This document shows, piece by piece, positions 8,654-64,000 of a DNA stretch of 64,000 bases. Made by a program: the position numbers and the translations under genes. The notes under the pieces were generated by a model, which saw nothing but the letters and a program-made list of their open reading frames with translations, was not told the origin of the DNA and did no database searches. The first letter of the stretch is position 1, and the number at the start of each line of letters is the position of its first letter. Origin of the DNA: an uncultured Treponemataceae bacterium (GTDB taxonomy: Bacteria; Spirochaetota; Spirochaetia; Treponematales; UBA12059); NCBI GenBank assembly GCA_964485395.1, contig CAZAJF010000015.1, forward strand, positions 16,008-80,007, read 5' to 3'.

Positions 8654-9061
8654 ATGACGCCTATCTTCGAAATCATAATAATCGCCGCGCTGCTGTTCAT
8701 CGCGGCGGAATGTTATATCATCACGCGCGAGCTTTCGCGCCTGGTCACGCTCATGCTCAAGGAACGCGAAACGCCCGAAGCGGCGCCGTCCGGCCAGACC
8801 ATCAACGTAAACCTCGGCCCTACTCAGCCGGGTGCGGCAGGTGGACAGGCGCAAAACAGCCCGGGGCAAAACCCGGAGGCTGCCGCGGCGGAACCGCAAA
8901 TGCTGATAGAAAGCGCACCCCGCATGCCGGAACCCGTCCCTGAACCCTACATTGAGCGCAGGCCGACCCAGAGCGGCCTGCTTGCGGTAAAATGCCCGAA
9001 ATGCCAAGCCGAAAACTCGAGCTACCGCGCCGAATGCTTCAACTGCGGCGCAAAGCTCTGA
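8654..9061 (+). CDS. Membrane-anchored protein with a C-terminal zinc ribbon
   Basis: N-terminal TM helix, Pro/Ala/Gln linker, CPKC-x10-CFNC. Confidence 0.75.
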   Translation: MTPIFEIIIIAALLFIAAECYIITRELSRLVTLMLKERETPEAAPSGQTINVNLGPTQPGAAGGQAQNSPGQNPEAAAAEPQMLIESAPRMPEPVPEPYIERRPTQSGLLAVKCPKCQAENSSYRAECFNCGAKL

Positions 9062-9067
9062 GTCGGA

Positions 9068-9142
9068 GAATTCAATCCGCAGCGCGGATTGAATTCCTAA
9101 CTACTCTCAATACAAATTCAATCCGCCGCGCGGATTGAATTT
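9068..9142. repeat. Two tandem 29-bp palindromes (REP-like; may also terminate the convergent genes)
   Basis: GAATTCAATCCGC-AGC-GCGGATTGAATTC (9068-9096) and AAATTCAATCCGC-CGC-GCGGATTGAATTT (9114-9142). Confidence 0.85.
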
Positions 9143-9906
9143 TCCTCAAAAAGGTATTGTTCCATTAAAGCCAGGCCGTTCAGCGTCAGGTCGGGTTCGA
9201 TAAGGTCGAACACCGTGGTAAGTCCCGTTATGACGCGGCACAACCCGCCCGTAGCCACGACCTTGGCGCCGCCCAATTCTCCCGTGATCCGCTTTACCAT
9301 ATATTCCACCAAACCCGTATAACCCAGCACCACGCCCGCCTGAATGGCCTGCACGGTGTTTTTCCCCATCGCAGAAGCGGGAGCTTCGAGCGGAACGGTA
9401 GGCAGTTGAGCCGTATTCGAGGCGAGCGAACCGGCGGCGGTGCCCAGACCGGGTGCTATGGAAACGCCGCAGATCGTGGCGTTTTTATCGACGGCCGTAA
9501 AGGTGAGCGCCGTGCCGAAATCCACCACCAGGCAGGAGCCGCGAAACAGGTTCCAGGCGGCCAGGGCATCGGCCACGAGGTCCGACCCTATCTCGTCGGC
9601 CGCTATGACGTGCACGGGCAGGCGTTTATACACCGCCGCGCCGAGGATCACGGGCTCAAGGGCGAACAGGTGCCTGGCCATTTTATCCATGGCCGCCGTA
9701 AGTTGCGGCACCACGGAGCTGATGATGACCCTGGTAATGTCGGCCAGGTTCCTGCCGCGGTCCAGGAGGATGGCGCGCACGATTACGCCGTATTCGTCCT
9801 CGGTCTTGCCCGCCACGGTACGGATGCGCAAGGTATCCAGGAGTTTTCCGTCCCGGTACACGCCGCCCACGATATTGGTATTTCCTGCATCGATTACTAA
9901 CAACAT
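9118..9906 (-). CDS. coaX: Type III pantothenate kinase
   Basis: 'LLVIDAGNTNIV', 'IGSD', 'VVDFGTALTF', 'VATGG'. Confidence 0.95.
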   Translation of the reverse strand: MLLVIDAGNTNIVGGVYRDGKLLDTLRIRTVAGKTEDEYGVIVRAILLDRGRNLADITRVIISSVVPQLTAAMDKMARHLFALEPVILGAAVYKRLPVHVIAADEIGSDLVADALAAWNLFRGSCLVVDFGTALTFTAVDKNATICGVSIAPGLGTAAGSLASNTAQLPTVPLEAPASAMGKNTVQAIQAGVVLGYTGLVEYMVKRITGELGGAKVVATGGLCRVITGLTTVFDLIEPDLTLNGLALMEQYLFEENSIRAAD

Positions 9907-59239: not shown

Positions 59240-59920
59240 ATGAGCACCAACGGAATATTTCACGAAGAGCCTCTTTCGTTGAGAAGAAAAGTGTACGATT
59301 ATCTCAAGACGAGCCTGAACGAAGGTAAGATGAAGCCGGGAGTGTTCCTGGACCTGAAAGGCATCGGGGATAAGCTTAAACTGTCCAGAACGCCGCTCCG
59401 CGACGCCCTGATACAGCTGGAAGTCGAAGGCTTTGTTACCATACATGCCAGACGCGGCGTCGTGCTCAACCCCATCGACCTTACCGGCATCCGCAACGCC
59501 TATCAGATAATCGGCGCCCTCGAAGCCAGCGCGCTCTTGGAGGCAAAAAGCAGCCTCACGCCCGCAGCCATAGACTCCATGGAACTGTATACGAAAAAAA
59601 TGCTCTCCAGCCTCGCCGAGGATAATTTCAACCTGTACTACCAGCAGAACATCGCGTTTCACGACACCTACCTGGAATTAAGCGCCAACTCCTATCTCAA
59701 GGAGACCGTGCGCAGGTTCAAGGAAAAACTCTACGATTTTCCCAGGCGCTCATCCTATCTTAAAACCTGGGAAGAATCCTCCGCCAGGGAACACGAAGAG
59801 CTGATCGCCTGTCTTCGCGCCGGAAAGTGGAACGACGCGGTTACCTTGCTCCGCGACGTCCACTGGTCATTCGCGGCTCAGGAAAAGTTCATTCACGAAT
59901 ACTATTTTGCCGGGATGTAA
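59240..59920 (+). CDS. GntR-family (FCD) regulator
   Basis: 'LSRTPLRDALIQLEVEGFV', 'NIAFH', 'EHEELI'; TTGCTC-17 nt-TATAGT ends 6 nt before ATG 59240. Confidence 0.92.
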   Translation: MSTNGIFHEEPLSLRRKVYDYLKTSLNEGKMKPGVFLDLKGIGDKLKLSRTPLRDALIQLEVEGFVTIHARRGVVLNPIDLTGIRNAYQIIGALEASALLEAKSSLTPAAIDSMELYTKKMLSSLAEDNFNLYYQQNIAFHDTYLELSANSYLKETVRRFKEKLYDFPRRSSYLKTWEESSAREHEELIACLRAGKWNDAVTLLRDVHWSFAAQEKFIHEYYFAGM

Positions 59921-59921
59921 C

Positions 59922-59980
59922 GCCAAACATGCGCTTAACCCGCGGGACATGGCATAGTCCGGTTTAAACAGTTGTTATGA
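59922..59980 (-). mobile_element. attC-like integron recombination site (59 bp, degenerate)
   Basis: TCATAAC-AAC-TGTTTAAACC...GGTTAAGCG-CAT-GTTTGGC, an R''/L''...L'/R' layout. Confidence 0.7.
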
Positions 59981-60140
59981 AATATATGCTTCAAGATTTA
60001 TGCATAACTTCTTTTGTTTTATGCACTGTTCCTGATATAACGCTTTCCGCTCTTTTCTTGATTGATTTCAATTAATTTTTTATTTGCGTTTCGTCAAGAC
60101 TAAATGCGAAGATTATGGGCATATCAAATCCGACAAGCAT
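59975..60140 (-). pseudogene. AT-rich remnant, possibly a decayed cassette ORF
   Basis: Abrupt AT-rich stretch abutting the R'' end of the attC-like site; only short broken frames. Confidence 0.35.
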
Positions 60141-60222
60141 TTATCATGGGGTATACGCCAGTCCAGTCCCCAAAAACCCAGTAAATACCAAAGATGGACC
60201 TGGATATGATCCTCTGATTCTT

Positions 60223-60588
60223 TCAGCGGCCAGAGCGGGATTCCTGTTCGCGGCGGCTTAACAATACCTGAACTCCCATGCCCAGCTCTGAATGCAGATA
60301 TTCCAGCTCGGCCATCGTTCCTACGAGTTCGAGCTCCAACTCGTCACGGCGGCGGCCGGCAAGGGTTCCGTAATAGCTGGCGATTTCCGGCTGTACGGGA
60401 CCGGCAAAAATATTCTTGAGGTATTCGATATCTTCGGGCAGCAACAACAAATCCTTCGCGGTAATGGCGCAATAGGAGCGCTCCTTGCCGATATCGTAGT
60501 TGGTGCTGACGCTAGTAGCCCCTTTTGCTATGAAATACTTAAGGAATTCCTCGGCTGCCCTCATCAGTTGGACGGAATCAAACCTCAT
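60223..60588 (-). CDS. Hypothetical protein, partner of DUF1576
   Basis: Overlaps the DUF1576 stop; GGAGG SD; 'YYGTLAG...ELELVGTM'. Confidence 0.75.
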   Translation of the reverse strand: MRFDSVQLMRAAEEFLKYFIAKGATSVSTNYDIGKERSYCAITAKDLLLLPEDIEYLKNIFAGPVQPEIASYYGTLAGRRRDELELELVGTMAELEYLHSELGMGVQVLLSRREQESRSGR

Positions 60589-61870
60589 GAGCCCTCCATT
60601 CGCGCAGCCATTCCAGGATGGGTATCATGAGGCCAGCCACTATTCCGCCGGAGAAGCCGTTGTTGTAGAGGTTGATGCCGCCATGTAAAACACCCACGGT
60701 CTGTACAAGCACAAAGTGTAAATTCCCCGCTATAAAACCGGCAAACATGCCGTAGGTACCGCTTATGGGAGCCAAGGTTGCGGCAAACAGCATTGCCAGC
60801 AGACTGGTTGGACTGTTGATGTCGTAGCCGGAAACCAGAGCCATGGCAACCGCCCCGAGCATCGGAGGAAGGGCGTTTCTAGGATGCTTGCCAAAGGCCG
60901 CAAAGCCGGTAATCGTAAGGACTCCGCCGAGTATAGGTCCGTTCCAGGGAGCCCCGACAAGCGTAATCAAGCCGAAACTGAGCCCTGCCATCATGGACAT
61001 GTTTATGAGCGTCAAACCCAAGCCGTGTAAGCGCACGAAGTCGCTGACTAGACGGCCGGAGGAGGCGAGCAGTTTGCCGTAGCTTTTATACCAATGCCTG
61101 TCCAGAACGCAGCCGGCGGTGAACAAGCCGGCGACGAGCATTCCAACCAAGACCAGCACGATACTCGGCCGTGCCGTTGACCAGGCGAATCCGCCGGAGA
61201 GCGAAATGCCGAAAGCCTTGAACAATGCCAGTGATATAGTGCCTACGAAGCCTGCGGTAAAACCGACGTTGTACAGATTGTAACCCCGATGAAAATCCAG
61301 GACATGGCGAGCCAGGGGTGACAGCACAAAACCGGCCAGTATCCCGCCAGGCACGGCCAGAATAAAATTCCAGGGGATTGGCAGTCCCATGCCAAAGGCT
61401 ATTTCGCTTACCAACGGAGCAAGGGCTGTTCCAAATAGGGCTACGAGAATGTGTTCGGAAAAAGGCCTGCGGTTGATTTTCGCGAAACAAAAAACTCCCA
61501 GCATCACCGGCAGTATGTTCATGGGGTTTTTGCCAAAGAGCGCAAAGCCGGATATCGTAAAAATGGCGGCGATAGCCGGGCCGGAAACCAGTACCCGTGT
61601 CAGGGACAGCAGCGAAAAACCGATGCCAGCGCAGAGAGCGGCATTGATCAGGGCGTGCCCGGGACTGGCCCGCTCGAAATAATCGTTGATGAGTATGTCC
61701 GGCTGGCGGATGATGTCCAGGAGTCCACTCAGCAAGGGGCGGCGGTCCACCAGCAGCACAATGAAGCCTGTCCCGGCCAAAAGTGCGAGGAACAAGTTTA
61801 TTAATAGCTTTGCTCTGCGGGAATCGATGACGATATCGGGCTTTTTAATTTTGATGCTTGAATCTATCAC
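60578..61870 (-). CDS. DUF1576-domain membrane protein
   Basis: Internal duplication 'GFALFGKN'/'GFAAFGKH' and 'HRGYNLYNVGF'/'HGGINLYNNGF'. Confidence 0.88.
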   Translation of the reverse strand: MIDSSIKIKKPDIVIDSRRAKLLINLFLALLAGTGFIVLLVDRRPLLSGLLDIIRQPDILINDYFERASPGHALINAALCAGIGFSLLSLTRVLVSGPAIAAIFTISGFALFGKNPMNILPVMLGVFCFAKINRRPFSEHILVALFGTALAPLVSEIAFGMGLPIPWNFILAVPGGILAGFVLSPLARHVLDFHRGYNLYNVGFTAGFVGTISLALFKAFGISLSGGFAWSTARPSIVLVLVGMLVAGLFTAGCVLDRHWYKSYGKLLASSGRLVSDFVRLHGLGLTLINMSMMAGLSFGLITLVGAPWNGPILGGVLTITGFAAFGKHPRNALPPMLGAVAMALVSGYDINSPTSLLAMLFAATLAPISGTYGMFAGFIAGNLHFVLVQTVGVLHGGINLYNNGFSGGIVAGLMIPILEWLREWRAHEV

Positions 61871-61876
61871 AGCAGT

Positions 61877-61905
61877 ATTTTAGGTTACTATGCCCGCCTT
61901 GTCAA
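61877..61905 (-). promoter_or_regulatory. Sigma70 promoter of the DUF1576 operon (leaderless)
   Basis: TTGACA-17 nt-TAAAAT, 6 nt before the GTG. Confidence 0.7.
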
Positions 61906-62101
61906 TTTTAAGCCTAGGGCTTATTCCATCTGGACGCACTCGCGACCTGTGCTCCACCGCTGGAATCGACTTGAGCCAACTGCCTCAACCGAATTAGGCT
62001 TGGCAAGAAGCTGAATTCGATCAGGTATTATCCGTGACAACAGGAATTGTCAGTTAAATGCATTTACCGGGCAAGCTTCCATACTTTAATTGCATAGTGC
62101 C

Positions 62102-62623
62102 TCATGAACTTTTCCAGACAAGACATTTATCATCGTTGTTAAGTTTTTTTATTTTTTTCCGAATGCCGACTGTTTCCTGCAAAACGATATTTATTTCTTC
62201 GTCTCCTGGAATATATTCTTTATAACCGTGTTTATGATAAAACATTCCTGACCATGGAGCCCACTTCTGATAATTCGTGGTAAATAAAGAAAAACCATTT
62301 TCGCGTCCATAGTTCTCAAATACATTCAATAATAATTCACCTATTCCTTTTCTTTGAATACTCCCCGAGACAAATAGAAGCTTTAAATGATATGATTTTG
62401 GAGTAAAAATAATTCCTGCCGCCACGCCAACTATATGATGGGCCTGTATCGCCAACCATACCATGCTGTCGGAGTCTGTAATTATTGCGTTAAGTTCTTC
62501 CGAAGTAATAGTGAAGCTATAATCATTAGGTGTCGTATCATGAAATATACTATAAGACTGTTTTATTAAATCCAATATACCGGAGGCGTCCAGTTGGGTT
62601 GCTAATCTCATTGATATTTCCAT
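62102..62623 (-). CDS. GNAT-family N-acetyltransferase (AT-rich, cassette-like)
   Basis: 'MRLAT..D', 'LFVSGSIQRKGIGELLL', 'FYHKHGY'. Confidence 0.88.
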   Translation of the reverse strand: MEISMRLATQLDASGILDLIKQSYSIFHDTTPNDYSFTITSEELNAIITDSDSMVWLAIQAHHIVGVAAGIIFTPKSYHLKLLFVSGSIQRKGIGELLLNVFENYGRENGFSLFTTNYQKWAPWSGMFYHKHGYKEYIPGDEEINIVLQETVGIRKKIKKLNNDDKCLVWKSS

Positions 62624-62650
62624 TTTTTATTCCTTGTGCGCGCAGCATCT

Positions 62651-62695
62651 CCCTAACATACGCTTAACTGTACAGTTGAAGCGATTGTCAGGTTT
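62651..62695 (-). mobile_element. attC-like site (Treponema-type arms, shortened)
   Basis: AAACCTGAC-AAT-CGCTTCAAC-TGTACA-GTTAAGCG-TAT-GTTAGGG, with one unpaired C in L''. Confidence 0.75.
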
Positions 62696-62733
62696 CCCGC
62701 AGGTACGTACCGGCCACATCGATTACAGTATTG

Positions 62734-63522
62734 TCATTTATCAATATATATCGTTCCTTTTTTATAAAGAACTGCATTTCCTGAAACGACAACATCATTA
62801 TCCCTATTTTCACAGAATAGATCCCCTTTTCGATGGGACAATTGCTTTGCTATTAATTTATCTTTTTTTAAAATGTTTGCCCAATACGGTATAAGAGAAC
62901 AATGGGCTGATCCTGTAACCGGATCTTCAAGTATTGTTGCTTGAGGCGTAAAAAATCTTGATACAAAATCAACGTCTTTACCAACTGAAGTAACGCACAA
63001 TCCACCTGGATCAAGATTTATCTGATTAAACTTCGTTGGATTAATTTCTATATTTTTTATTTGGTCCTCACTTTCATAAATGAACAGGTAATCTCTTGAT
63101 TTCAATACTGCGCCAGGCTTTATATTCACCGATTCAATAAGTATTTCAGGTGCATCGCAAAGCAAAGGATTTCTTTTGGGAAGAACCATATAGATTCGTT
63201 TATTATCGATATTAATATCAATTGTATCTGTTTCTGAAATGAAGCGGACATGATCAGAATGATCAATGAATTCTGCAACAACAAATGCCGCGGCTAGCGT
63301 GGCATGACCGCATAAATCCATTTCGATATCGGGCGTAAACCATCTTATCCTATATTCGCCTTTTGCTCCGATAATAAAAGCAGTTTCGGCAAGTCCATTT
63401 TCTCTGGCAATATTTAATAAGGTTTGCTTATCCAACCATTTATCAAGAACACAAACGCCAGCTGGATTTCCGCAAAAAAGCTTTTGTGTGAATGAATCAA
63501 TATGGTAGTAAGCAATATCCAT
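62734..63522 (-). CDS. PhzF-family isomerase/epimerase (AT-rich gene cassette)
   Basis: 'DSFT...GNPAGV', 'AETAF', 'RWFTP..EMDLCGHATLA', 'EDPVTGSAHC'. Confidence 0.95.
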   Translation of the reverse strand: MDIAYYHIDSFTQKLFCGNPAGVCVLDKWLDKQTLLNIARENGLAETAFIIGAKGEYRIRWFTPDIEMDLCGHATLAAAFVVAEFIDHSDHVRFISETDTIDINIDNKRIYMVLPKRNPLLCDAPEILIESVNIKPGAVLKSRDYLFIYESEDQIKNIEINPTKFNQINLDPGGLCVTSVGKDVDFVSRFFTPQATILEDPVTGSAHCSLIPYWANILKKDKLIAKQLSHRKGDLFCENRDNDVVVSGNAVLYKKGTIYIDK

Positions 63523-63547
63523 ATTTACTCCTATCGACCAGAAAACC

Positions 63548-63609
63548 TGACAACATTTATATTGAACCGGGTTTCGCGGCTTCGCGCGGCGAAACCCGGC
63601 TGTAATCTA
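63548..63609 (-). mobile_element. Truncated attC-like site / hairpin fused to the tyrS stop
   Basis: TAGATTACAG-CCGGGTTTCGC...GCGAAACCCGG-TTCAATATA-AAT-GTTGTCA; no R'' AAC box. Confidence 0.55.
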
Positions 63610-64000
63610 TTCCAGCACTACGCGCACGAAACGCTTTTTGCCTGCCCTTAGAATTACGCTGTCCGAGCCGCAAGAATCCAGCCCGACCGCCAATTTTTCG
63701 TCCTTCCAGCCGGTTTCGCCCACAACGGCCCCACCCTGCTGCACGAGTCGCCTCGCATCGCTCTTGCTCGGGCACAAGCCGGCATCCACGAATAGATCCA
63801 TGACTGGATAACCGGATGCAAACTTGGCCCGCGGGAGGGAAACGGTGGGCATAGCGGACAAGTCGCCCATTCCCCCGAAAGCGGCCTTTGCGCCTGCCAG
63901 GGCCTTGTCGGCTTCTTCCTTGCCGTGAATCAGCGCGGTAACTTCCCAGGCCAGGCGTTCTTTCGCATCGTTGATATTGAGGCCGGGCGCTACCAAAGCC
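63607..64000 (-). CDS. tyrS: Tyrosine--tRNA ligase, C-terminal part
   Basis: 'INDAKERLAWEVTALIHG'; S4 domain 'SKSDARRLVQQGG'; 'LRAGKKRF'. Confidence 0.93.
   Translation of the reverse strand, partial: ALVAPGLNINDAKERLAWEVTALIHGKEEADKALAGAKAAFGGMGDLSAMPTVSLPRAKFASGYPVMDLFVDAGLCPSKSDARRLVQQGGAVVGETGWKDEKLAVGLDSCGSDSVILRAGKKRFVRVVLE

What the first reader, a model, noticed from the sequence alone, without database searches (positions are those of the whole stretch)
59922..63609. Decayed, integrase-less integron cassette array directly behind tyrS
Seen: three attC-like inverted repeats, all on the minus strand and co-oriented with the ORFs (59922-59980, 62651-62695, 63548-63609). Two share the right arm GTTAAGCG-NAT-GTT. 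The PhzF and GNAT genes are sharply AT-rich (16/60 GC at 63001-63060) and start only 31 and 33 nt after a G|TT crossover, with an SD but no room for a promoter. No tyrosine recombinase lies in the window. Known: this matches integron cassette architecture, and attC clusters without an integrase are called CALINs. Inference: relic cassettes are parked at a housekeeping locus and may be expressed by tyrS read-through.
Basis: partly seen in the sequence, partly recalled or inferred. Interest (0 to 1): 0.72.

Follow-up and report, generated by a model that had tools for sequence, protein, structure and literature searches.

The report
Stray integron cassettes behind tyrS
A 3.7-kb cluster of integron gene cassettes with two genuine attC recombination sites sits between two housekeeping genes of an environmental spirochaete whose real integron lies elsewhere in the genome; this is a known kind of element, unusually cleanly documented.

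Summary
A covariance model built from 15 attCs of this genome's own integron and of relatives hits 62651-62693(-) at 36.9 bits (E 1.2e-6) and 59922-59980(-) at 28.3 bits (E 1.7e-4). Nothing else in the window is significant. In the whole genome they are the only non-training hits at E<=1.

The third site (63548-63609) is not an attC. It is the GC-rich hairpin of the native tyrS/gntR spacer.

The same-genus relative has gntR and tyrS 44 nt apart. So all of 59921-63550 is an insertion: PhzF, GNAT, a DUF1576 two-gene operon and AT-rich spacers.

The window has no tyrosine recombinase. The genome does have an intact integron integrase, an attI-like site and an array on other contigs.

Best reading: a CALIN made by integrase-mediated insertion of cassettes at a non-canonical G|TT site, not an integron that decayed in place. 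Read-through expression from tyrS is plausible but untested.

This is a new member of a known kind. Oddities are a 43-nt mini-attC and a host-like, promoter-bearing operon inside the cluster.

The parts
63607..64000 (-). 3' end of tyrS (C-terminal 130 aa). This is the native flank, and the cassettes are co-oriented with it.
   Evidence: Pfam SYY_C-terminal/TyrRSs_C. It is 86% identical at protein level to the same-genus relative.
63567..63599 (.). Native GC-rich hairpin of the tyrS/gntR spacer.
   Evidence: Inverted repeat I14, 14-nt arms, 93% complementary. DNA fold -17.3 kcal/mol, z -4.6. No attC-model hit. Not scored as an intrinsic terminator because it lacks a T-run. G001, G004 and G015 have other GC hairpins at the same place.
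63545..63554 (-). Left junction, GTT-GTCAGGT. The cassette starts at TCAGGT (63550). The G at 63551 or 63554 belongs to the target.
   Evidence: GTCAGGT is the exact reverse complement of the R'' box ACCTGAC of this cassette's attC. Each occurs once in the island. The complementarity is 11 nt and 100% (I25). Homology to a 68%-identical PhzF gene in locus L089 begins exactly at 63550.
62734..63522 (-). Cassette 1 ORF: PhzF-family isomerase, 262 aa, intact.
   Evidence: PF02567 at 3e-43 over 1-281 of 281 profile positions. TIGR00654 at 110 bits against a cut-off of 76. The best relative in 41 family genomes is 37% identical. A 64%-identical homologue in L091 is itself a cassette with an attC.
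62651..62693 (-). attC of cassette 1, a 43-nt 'mini-attC': R'' ACCTGAC, spacer AATCG, L'' CTTCAAC, TGTACA, L' GTTAAG, spacer CGTAT, R' GTTAGGG.
   Evidence: Model R1 scores 36.9 bits, E 1.2e-6 in the window and 7.9e-5 genome-wide. The arms match the family consensus. The bottom strand folds into R stem, 2x2 unpaired spacer and L stem with an extrahelical G; z -3.2, 1 of 200 shuffles as good.
62102..62623 (-). Cassette 2 ORF: GNAT acetyltransferase, 173 aa, intact.
   Evidence: Pfam Acetyltransf_10/7/1. No specific NCBIfam family over its cut-off. No homologue at E<=1e-8 in 41 other family genomes.
61975..62085 (-). Possible relic of the GNAT cassette's attC. Not significant.
   Evidence: Weak partial nhmmer matches of 4.4 and 3.3 bits, including TTGTCACGG. 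Alignment z is 2.6, with 3 of 200 shuffles as good. No covariance-model hit at E<=10. It does not fold as a hairpin.
61877..61905 (-). Sigma-70-like promoter TTGACA-17-TAAAAT directly before the DUF1576 start codon.
   Evidence: 11 of 12 matches, the best in the region. The total number of promoter-like sites in the region equals chance (7 against 6.8).
60578..61870 (-). DUF1576 membrane protein gene, 430 aa, with host-like GC of about 0.55.
   Evidence: PF07613 at 3e-102. GC. Absent from the same-genus relative. In G003, G014 and G006 it sits at another, conserved locus.
60223..60588 (-). 121-aa gene of no known family. It overlaps the DUF1576 stop, and the pair is conserved.
   Evidence: No Pfam or NCBIfam hit. 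Homologues follow DUF1576 in G003, G014 and G006 at 63-65% identity.
59981..60222 (.). AT-rich non-coding spacer (GC about 0.37). It may be the remnant of a lost cassette.
   Evidence: Composition. No ORF of 50 aa or more. No homology to relatives' DUF1576 loci.
59922..59980 (-). Terminal attC, 59 nt: R'' TCATAAC, spacer AACTG, L'' TTTAAAC, 22-nt centre, L' GTTAAG, spacer CGCAT, R' GTTTGGC. It is degenerate, and its R' abuts the gntR stop codon.
   Evidence: Model R1 scores 28.3 bits, E 1.7e-4 in the window and 0.011 genome-wide. The top strand folds canonically. The bottom strand does not; z +0.5.
59240..59920 (+). GntR/FCD regulator gene. This is the native flank, convergent with tyrS.
   Evidence: PF00392 plus PF07729. 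It is 87% identical to the same-genus relative, where it lies 44 nt from tyrS.

Best explanation
The stretch 59921-63550 is a small cluster of integron gene cassettes lying away from the integron, that is, a CALIN. It was inserted into the short spacer between the convergent genes tyrS and gntR.

Its order, read on the minus strand, is:
- the native tyrS hairpin;
- the junction G|TCAGGT;
- the PhzF cassette with a 43-nt attC;
- the GNAT cassette, whose own attC is lost or decayed;
- a host-like DUF1576/121-aa operon with its own promoter-like site;
- an AT-rich remnant;
- a degenerate 59-nt attC whose R' box (G|TTTGGC) joins the gntR stop codon.

Shown: the two attCs belong to the same sequence and structure family as those of the genome's own integron, whose intI is intact on another contig. 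The PhzF cassette obeys the cassette rule that R'' is complementary to the cassette's first bases. The whole block is absent from the same-genus relative.

Inferred: the resident integrase IntI put the cassettes there by attC x secondary-site ('attG'-type, G|TT) recombination. Further cassettes were added at the attC already present, or a multi-cassette circle went in at once.

Inferred and untested: the promoterless PhzF and GNAT genes are transcribed by read-through from tyrS, because the hairpin lacks a U-tract. DUF1576 would use its own promoter.
For: attC identity:
- Model R1 was built from 15 attCs (5 from G000, 10 from four relatives). With filters off it hits only these two sites significantly in 64 kb.
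- Genome-wide, 7 distinct sites reach E<=1: the 5 training sites plus these 2 (150 of 1059 first-look candidates were scored).
- TTAAGCNNATGTT has 5 matches in the genome: 2 here, 2 in the array on C50 and 1 at the array's continuation on C17.
- The arms AATCGCTTCAAC and GTTAAGCGTATGTT of site 62651-62693 equal the family consensus.

Cassette rule:
- In the G006 array, the R'' of each attC is the reverse complement of the R' at its cassette's start in 5 of 5 successive cassettes.
- Here ACCTGAC (62693-62687) pairs with GTCAGGT (63551-63545), and each occurs once in the island.
- Homology to the L089 PhzF gene starts exactly at 63550.
- A 64%-identical PhzF gene in L091 is followed by a 63-nt attC (28.3 bits, E 3.8e-5). 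It is preceded by GTTAGAT, the complement of that attC's R'' ATCTAAC.

Insertion:
- G001 (same genus) has gntR and tyrS separated by 44 nt.
- G004 and G015 have them about 40 and 80 nt apart.

Integrase:
- IntI scores 459 bits over TIGR02249 positions 1-315 with no stops.
- An attI-like GTTAGGT and co-oriented cassettes follow it.
- IntI is over the cut-off in 25 of 42 family genomes.

Foreignness:
- GC is 0.33-0.41.
- GNAT is found in 1 of 42 family genomes, which is G000 itself. PhzF relatives reach at most 37% identity.

Assembly: per-run contigs bridge every junction. These are X1 59700-62509 and 62651-63889, X2 60286-62996 and 63063-64000, and X4 59779-60103.

Precedent: secondary-site (attG, GWT core) insertion and small CALINs or SALINs are described in passages of 10.1101/2022.09.11.507474. 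Origin (ii) for CALINs is given in PMC4889954.
Against: - The model is family-specific and built by me. IntegronFinder's own attC model was not run.
- The terminal attC (59922-59980) is weak genome-wide (E 0.011). Its bottom strand does not fold into the canonical shape (z +0.5), and its R'' TCATAAC has no exact complementary cassette start in the island.
- No attC is detectable between GNAT and DUF1576. The third 'cassette' is therefore 2.7 kb long and compositionally mixed.
- DUF1576 has host-like GC and a promoter-like site, which is atypical for a cassette. None of 30 DUF1576 loci in other genomes has an attC hit.
- The cassette's first bases read G|TC, not the conserved G|TT.
- The four runs that bridge the junctions come from one study and may be the source of the assembly, so they are not independent.
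- No empty-site or excised form was seen.
- Expression is untested.
Confidence: 0.8

Rival explanations
1. A piece of the genome's main cassette array was moved here by an ordinary rearrangement rather than by IntI acting on a secondary site. Candidate routes are homologous or illegitimate recombination, or uptake of foreign DNA carrying several cassettes.
For: PMC4889954 lists rearrangement as one origin of CALINs. The cluster holds non-cassette-like DNA, namely the DUF1576 operon and the AT-rich spacers. The left junction is not a canonical G|TT.
Against: The right end of the block coincides to the base with the R' box of an attC, and the left end with the first base of a cassette. That is what site-specific recombination predicts. 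No flanking direct repeats or transposase were seen.
Confidence: 0.1
2. This is a complete integron that decayed in place. The integrase and attI once lay here and were deleted.
For: One attC is degenerate and one is probably lost. Loss of intI is a recognised origin of CALINs.
Against: gntR and tyrS are adjacent in G001, G004 and G015, so the ancestral state had no platform. No IntI-like or PF00589-like remnant lies on the contig. An intact intI with an attI-like site and an array exists elsewhere.
Confidence: 0.04
3. Assembly or binning artefact: cassette DNA from another organism of the community was joined to this contig through repeated attC arms.
For: The genome is a 78-contig assembly with 3.6% contamination. 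Another contig in the same runs carries a long attC with the same arms as 62651-62693 (records 6, 12 and 24).
Against: Separate per-run contigs cross each junction with 0 other letters, including one 2711-nt contig across the mini-attC. The mini-attC differs from the long one by its missing centre, so it is not a collapsed repeat. These runs are from one study and may be the source.
Confidence: 0.03
4. An ordinary AT-rich genomic island with chance palindromes and no link to integrons.
For: AT-rich islands with small hairpins are common. This rests on general knowledge.
Against: Covariance-model E-values of 1.2e-6 and 1.7e-4. A 13-nt arm motif is shared only with the integron array. There is an exact R''/cassette-start complement. 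A PhzF homologue is a cassette elsewhere.
Confidence: 0.02

Closest known systems
[quoted passage not shown] 2016, PMC4889954, passages read)
   Same: There are two attC sites 2.67 kb apart on one strand. ORFs are co-oriented and mostly promoterless. No intI lies nearby, and IntI is encoded elsewhere in the genome, as the paper reports for half of CALINs.
   Different: One attC is only 43 nt long, with a terminal structure far below the 20-100 nt the paper quotes. One expected attC is missing. The cluster also holds a host-like operon with its own promoter-like site.
Cassette insertion at genomic attG sites, and SALINs (preprint 10.1101/2022.09.11.507474, passages read)
   Same: Cassettes lie outside attI/attC at a site whose core fits G-W-T. 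They are next to a resident transcription unit that could express them. The result is a small cluster with no transposon or intI remnant.
   Different: That work used IntI1 and Vibrio integrases in E. coli and V. cholerae. Here the integrase is a spirochaete enzyme, the event is natural and only inferred, and the junction reads G|TC on the cassette side.
Chromosomal integrons of Treponema and other spirochaetes with the integrase co-oriented with the cassettes. Sources: PMC4889954 passage; PMC3607928, search listing and start of abstract only; Spirochaetes attC model in PMC8352920, passages.
   Same: The resident integron on C50/C17 has intI followed on the same strand by an attI-like site and cassettes. 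The G006 array has the same layout. The attCs are strongly conserved within the family.
   Different: The locus studied here is not that integron but an outlying cluster. The hosts are environmental spirochaete assemblies, going by the record titles of related loci.
aadB cassette inserted at secondary sites in plasmids RSF1010 and pRAY, downstream of a promoter (cited in the discussion passage of 10.1101/2022.09.11.507474; original papers not read)
   Same: A complete cassette sits outside an integron, behind a resident promoter that can express it.
   Different: Those are single resistance cassettes on plasmids. This is a chromosomal multi-gene cluster with no recognised resistance gene.

Membership tests
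attC recombination site | R''/R' inverse core sites (RYYYAAC ... GTTRRRY) that pair | tested here: met
   Site 62651-62693 has ACCTGAC ... GTTAGGG, one departure in each box, and forms a 7-bp stem with one G:T pair. Site 59922-59980 has TCATAAC ... GTTTGGC, which is more degenerate, but AAC and GTT are kept.
attC recombination site | L''/L' boxes, unpaired central spacers and an extrahelical base on the bottom strand | tested here: inconclusive
   Met for 62651-62693: a 2x2 unpaired spacer, and an L stem with an extrahelical G, as in the resident attC folded alongside it. Not met for 59922-59980: its bottom strand does not adopt the fold (z +0.5), although the top strand does.
attC recombination site | Match to an attC covariance model | tested here: met
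   The family-specific model R1 gives 36.9 and 28.3 bits. IntegronFinder's general model attc_4 was not available, so that form of the test was not run.
Integron gene cassette | One co-oriented, promoterless ORF followed by an attC, with R'' complementary to the cassette's first bases | tested here: met
   Met for the PhzF cassette: ACCTGAC pairs with GTCAGGT exactly, and the ATG is 28 nt from the boundary. The GNAT cassette has the start (TTAGGGA after R') but no detectable attC. The DUF1576 block does not fit: it has two genes, a promoter-like site and lies 240 nt from the attC.
CALIN | At least two attC sites clustered within 4 kb on the same strand | tested here: met
   The two sites are 2.67 kb apart and both on the minus strand. 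The threshold comes from PMC4889954.
CALIN | No integron integrase nearby | tested here: met
   TIGR02249 and PF00589 searches of the whole genome give no match on contig C15, which is 84 kb.
Complete integron | intI and attI adjacent to the cassettes | tested here: not met
   intI and the attI-like site are on contig C50. The same-genus relative shows no room for a platform at this locus.
attG-type secondary-site insertion | IntI-dependent recombination between a folded attC and a double-stranded genomic site with a G-W-T core | not testable with these tools
   The reconstructed target ...AAATGTTG|TTTGGCG contains GTT. Dependence on IntI needs an experiment.

The most novel reading that the evidence does not exclude
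The DUF1576/121-aa operon is a native chromosomal operon caught in the act of becoming, or travelling as, an integron cassette.
- It has host-like GC and its own promoter-like site.
- In three relatives from two genera it sits at a conserved locus between genes X and Y.
- That locus lacks it in G000 and in G001.
- Only in G000 is it bounded by an attC, inside a cassette cluster.

A plausible route is an attC landing next to the operon, followed by IntI excision between that attC and an upstream non-canonical site. The attG preprint reports such excision 'outside the insertion point' as causing chromosomal modifications. The excised circle would then have been re-inserted here. If so, this would be a natural snapshot of how integrases recruit ordinary genes into the cassette pool, an open question in the field.
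Probability: 0.15. Interest if true: 0.65.

Novelty: new member of a known kind. Interest (0 to 1): 0.35.

Why it matters
CALINs are common, but how they arise is mostly inferred. This locus offers a clean natural case: an empty site in a sister species, junctions resolved to the base, an intact integrase of the matching attC family in the same genome, and cassettes parked behind a housekeeping gene that could drive them.

It supports the recently proposed route by which integrases scatter cassettes outside integrons, and does so in a phylum far from the laboratory models. The 43-nt attC is a candidate minimal substrate for this integrase family. The host-like DUF1576 operon inside the cluster is a lead on cassette genesis. 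None of this overturns current understanding.

Tried and rejected
- RNA evidence: no RNA holder was listed for the stretch, so read-through from tyrS could not be examined.
- Population variants: no contig joins across the island and no excised form was seen in the 4 runs. Contigs drop rare variants.
- Third attC between GNAT and DUF1576: no model hit at E<=10. There are only 4.4-bit and 3.3-bit partial nhmmer matches and an alignment z of 2.6. I treat it as unproven.
- attCs next to DUF1576 elsewhere:
  - 0 hits in 30 loci with default filters;
  - none at the 5 relatives' DUF1576 loci (L008-L011, L015) with filters off;
  - that call searched 11 loci in all, and its only other hits were the training site in L018 on both strands and two at E 0.73 and 0.87 in non-DUF1576 loci.
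- attCs next to 80 PhzF relatives: 0 hits with default filters. With filters off on the 4 closest, 1 clear hit in L091. The default filters therefore miss short attCs, and the 0 of 30 and 0 of 80 counts are lower bounds.
- Exact 23-nt core of the mini-attC in metagenome contigs: 0 matches.
- A single-protein scan of genome contigs for DUF1576 found nothing. Repeating it with an alignment gave 30 loci.
- Homology of the island's non-coding parts to relatives' DUF1576 loci: only 13-nt chance matches.
- Direct repeats flanking the DUF1576 block: none convincing.
- Promoter and terminator scan: totals do not exceed shuffles (7 against 6.8, and 8 against 4.8). Only the single 11-of-12 site is noted.
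- Weak model hits at 8673-8718 and 9063-9147 (E 0.8-1.7) lie in normal-GC DNA and are not attCs.
- GNAT as a named aminoglycoside acetyltransferase: no NCBIfam family over its cut-off.
- G017 has a native high-GC glycyl-radical-enzyme gene between gntR and tyrS. That is not a cassette.

Full report
LAYOUT. Read on the minus strand, the region runs as follows:
- the 3' end of tyrS (63607-64000);
- a GC-rich hairpin (63567-63599);
- a PhzF-family gene (62734-63522);
- an inverted repeat (62651-62693);
- a GNAT acetyltransferase gene (62102-62623);
- 230 nt of non-coding DNA;
- a DUF1576 membrane-protein gene (60578-61870), overlapped by a 121-aa gene of no known family (60223-60588);
- 240 nt of AT-rich non-coding DNA;
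- a second inverted repeat (59922-59980).

That second repeat abuts the stop codon of a convergent GntR/FCD regulator gene (59240-59920, plus strand). PhzF and GNAT have GC of 0.33-0.41. The DUF1576 pair has about 0.55, like the flanks at 0.55-0.64.

THE OBSERVATION.
- GTTAAGCGNATGTT occurs at both sites, 2 matches against 0.06 expected. These are the only 2 matches in the 4.35-Mb genome.
- The GC count of 16 in 60 at 63001-63060 is right.
- The 31-nt and 33-nt distances from GTT to ATG, and the Shine-Dalgarno sequences, are as described.
- No tyrosine recombinase lies on the contig.

THE GENOME HAS A REAL INTEGRON.
- A search of the whole assembly with the integron-integrase family TIGR02249 found one full-length, stop-free match of 459 bits (cut-off 265) on contig C50.
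- Downstream on the same strand lie an attI-like ...AATGTTAGGT, an AT-rich EFR1-ferredoxin cassette and long attC sites.
- The array runs off the end of C50 and resumes at the start of C17.
- The integrase is co-oriented with the cassettes. This is the 'inverted integrase' layout described for Treponema (PMC4889954 passage). The six-attC array of relative G006 has the same layout.
- IntI is over the cut-off in 25 of 42 genomes of the family.
- Record titles of related loci place the family among spirochaetes.

ARE THE WINDOW'S REPEATS attC SITES? I collected 15 attCs: 4 from the G000 array, 1 outlying site on C3, and 10 from four relatives. They were aligned. The RNAalifold consensus has 35 pairs, 17 with compensatory changes, and single unpaired columns that interrupt the helices. 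I built covariance model R1 from this alignment.
- With filters off over the whole window, the only significant hits are 62651-62693(-) at 36.9 bits (E 1.2e-6) and 59922-59980(-) at 28.3 bits (E 1.7e-4). The next distinct site has E 0.8.
- Over the whole genome, 7 distinct sites reach E<=1: the 5 training sites and these 2.
- The 13-nt arm motif TTAAGCNNATGTT has 5 matches genome-wide: 2 here, 2 in the C50 array and 1 at the C17 array start.

Site 62651-62693 reads ACCTGAC-AATCG-CTTCAAC-TGTACA-GTTAAG-CGTAT-GTTAGGG.
- Its arms equal the family consensus, but the usual centre of about 70 nt is missing.
- Its bottom strand folds into an R stem, a 2x2 unpaired spacer and an L stem with an extrahelical G. 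The resident attC folded alongside it does the same (z -3.2).

Site 59922-59980 has canonical 7-5-7 ... 6-5-7 geometry and is 59 nt long.
- Its R'' box is degenerate and its extrahelical base differs from the consensus.
- Its bottom strand does not fold into the attC shape (z +0.5).
- It looks decayed.

THE THIRD SITE IS NOT AN attC.
- 63548-63609 gets no model hit.
- It is a GC-rich hairpin starting 7 nt after the tyrS stop.
- G001, G004 and G015 each have a different GC hairpin in the same spacer. It is therefore the native, probably bidirectional, terminator-like element.
- The simple scan does not score it as an intrinsic terminator, because no T-run follows it.

CASSETTE BOUNDARIES.
- In the G006 array, the R'' box of each attC is the exact reverse complement of the R' box at the start of its own cassette, in 5 of 5 successive cassettes. 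The G000 array behaves likewise.
- For the PhzF cassette, R'' is ACCTGAC (62693-62687). GTCAGGT stands at 63551-63545, 24 nt before the ATG at 63522-63520. Each 7-mer occurs once in the island.
- The complementarity extends to 11 nt (I25).
- Independently, DNA homology to the closest PhzF relative found (L089, 68% protein identity) begins exactly at 63550, the T of TCAGGT.
- A 64%-identical homologue (L091) is itself a cassette. It is preceded by GTTAGAT and followed by a 63-nt attC whose R'' is ATCTAAC (28.3 bits, E 3.8e-5).
- So PhzF genes of this clade do travel as cassettes. The triplet GTC departs from the conserved GTT.
- At the other end, the R' box G|TTTGGC of the terminal attC runs into the gntR stop codon.

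IT IS AN INSERTION.
- In the same-genus relative G001 (98% complete), gntR and tyrS are 44 nt apart.
- In G004 and G015, of another genus, they are about 40 and 80 nt apart.
- G017 has a native high-GC enzyme gene there instead.
- Joining the two junctions gives a plausible empty site of 63 nt whose core ...TGTTG|TTTGG contains GTT.
- GNAT has no homologue in the 41 other family genomes at E<=1e-8. PhzF has none above 37% identity.
- Per-run contigs from four runs of one study cross every junction without differences. These runs may be the assembly's own source, so they are not independent.
- The same runs hold another contig with a full-length attC whose arms match the mini-attC at 19 of 19 and 20 of 21 positions. 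That fits a deletion derivative or a close relative.

THE ODD PART.
- The DUF1576/121-aa pair has host-like composition. An 11-of-12 match to a sigma-70 promoter stands right before its start codon.
- G001 lacks the gene.
- In G003, G014 and G006 the pair lies between genes X and Y/Z.
- In G000, X and Y are on contig C18 with three other genes between them. In G001 they are about 290 nt apart.
- None of 30 DUF1576 loci from other genomes shows an attC (default filters, which can miss short sites).
- No attC is detectable between GNAT and DUF1576. There is only a non-significant resemblance at 61975-62085.
- The operon is therefore either a large atypical cassette, native-type DNA captured between cassettes, or fused to the GNAT cassette after an attC was lost. 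I cannot decide between these.

MECHANISM. Most likely (0.8), this is a CALIN produced when the resident or an incoming IntI recombined folded attC sites with a non-canonical site in the tyrS/gntR spacer.
- PMC4889954 lists this origin for CALINs.
- The preprint 10.1101/2022.09.11.507474 shows it experimentally. It also reports expression of such cassettes when they land near resident promoters.
- Shown here: attC identity, the cassette rule for PhzF, the insertion relative to relatives, and the presence of an intact integrase of the matching family.
- Inferred: that IntI did it, the order of events, and expression by tyrS read-through.

COMPARISON AND VERDICT.
- The locus meets the CALIN definition: two attCs within 4 kb and no nearby intI.
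- It does not meet the definition of a complete integron.
- It resembles attG-type insertion, but that cannot be proven without an assay.
- It is a new member of a known kind.
- Three features raise its value as an example: the empty site in a sister species, a 43-nt attC, and an embedded host-like operon.
- I did not read any supplementary files. Those of the attG preprint are closed and may hold site logos that bear on the G|TC junction.

Noticed in passing
G000:C50:22898-26027 and G000:C17:1-1200 (loci L001, L016, L017): The genome's complete integron. intI has a roughly 115-aa N-terminal extension (432-aa ORF). It is followed on the same strand by an attI-like site, an EFR1-ferredoxin cassette and at least 4 long attCs of 108-136 nt. 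The array is split across two contig ends.
   Followed up: partly
First ~15 nt after the R' box of cassettes in L016, L017, L018, L036, L037 and L039: Most cassettes of this family begin, right after R', with a short GC-rich hairpin motif, (G/T)GAC(G/C)C-loop-G(C/G)G(C), for example GGACCCTTCGGGC. By eye, 12 of 16 sites listed have it. GC is 0.46-0.77 in the first 26 nt against 0.21-0.50 in the next 100 nt. The GNAT cassette in the window has a weak version (AGATGCTGCGCGCAC) and the PhzF cassette has none. Its function is unknown.
   Followed up: partly
G000:C3:139860-140597 (L018:1860-2597): Another outlying cassette. It starts with AATGTTAGGTTGACCC, nearly the same as the integron's attI junction. 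It carries one ORF and a 114-nt attC (95 bits), within a 3-kb AT-rich stretch and far from intI. Off-integron cassettes therefore recur in this genome.
   Followed up: partly
G000:C17:1311-1789 (minus strand): Two fragments matching the tyrosine-recombinase family PF00589 (26.5 and 21.3 bits, below the cut-off) lie just beyond the last attC of the array.
   Followed up: no
L091:500-1400 and L089:1950-3300 (metagenome contigs): L091 carries a PhzF homologue (64% identity) as a textbook cassette with a 63-nt attC next to very GC-rich DNA. L089 carries a 68%-identical homologue as a 1.35-kb AT-rich island in a GC-rich contig with no detectable attC, and it shares the 5' leader TCAGGTTTTC with the window's cassette.
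   Followed up: partly
G000:C18:68500-76500 (L058), compared with G001:C1:33360-36653: The locus that holds DUF1576 in three relatives is variable. It has three other genes in G000 and about 290 nt in G001. A stretch of about 125 nt at its edge (L058:2276-2400) matches G001 on both strands and also a second G001 contig. This may be a palindromic repeat element.
   Followed up: no
window 9063-9147: Two near-identical GC hairpins in tandem (GAATTCAATCCGC...GCGGATTGAATT) directly after a gene's stop codon. They gave a weak false hit to the attC model.
   Followed up: partly
window 59987-60076 (plus strand): A 29-codon hydrophobic ORF (MLQDLCITSFVLCTVPDITLSALFLIDFN) lies in the AT-rich spacer beside the terminal attC, on the strand opposite to the cassettes. 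It may be chance.
   Followed up: no
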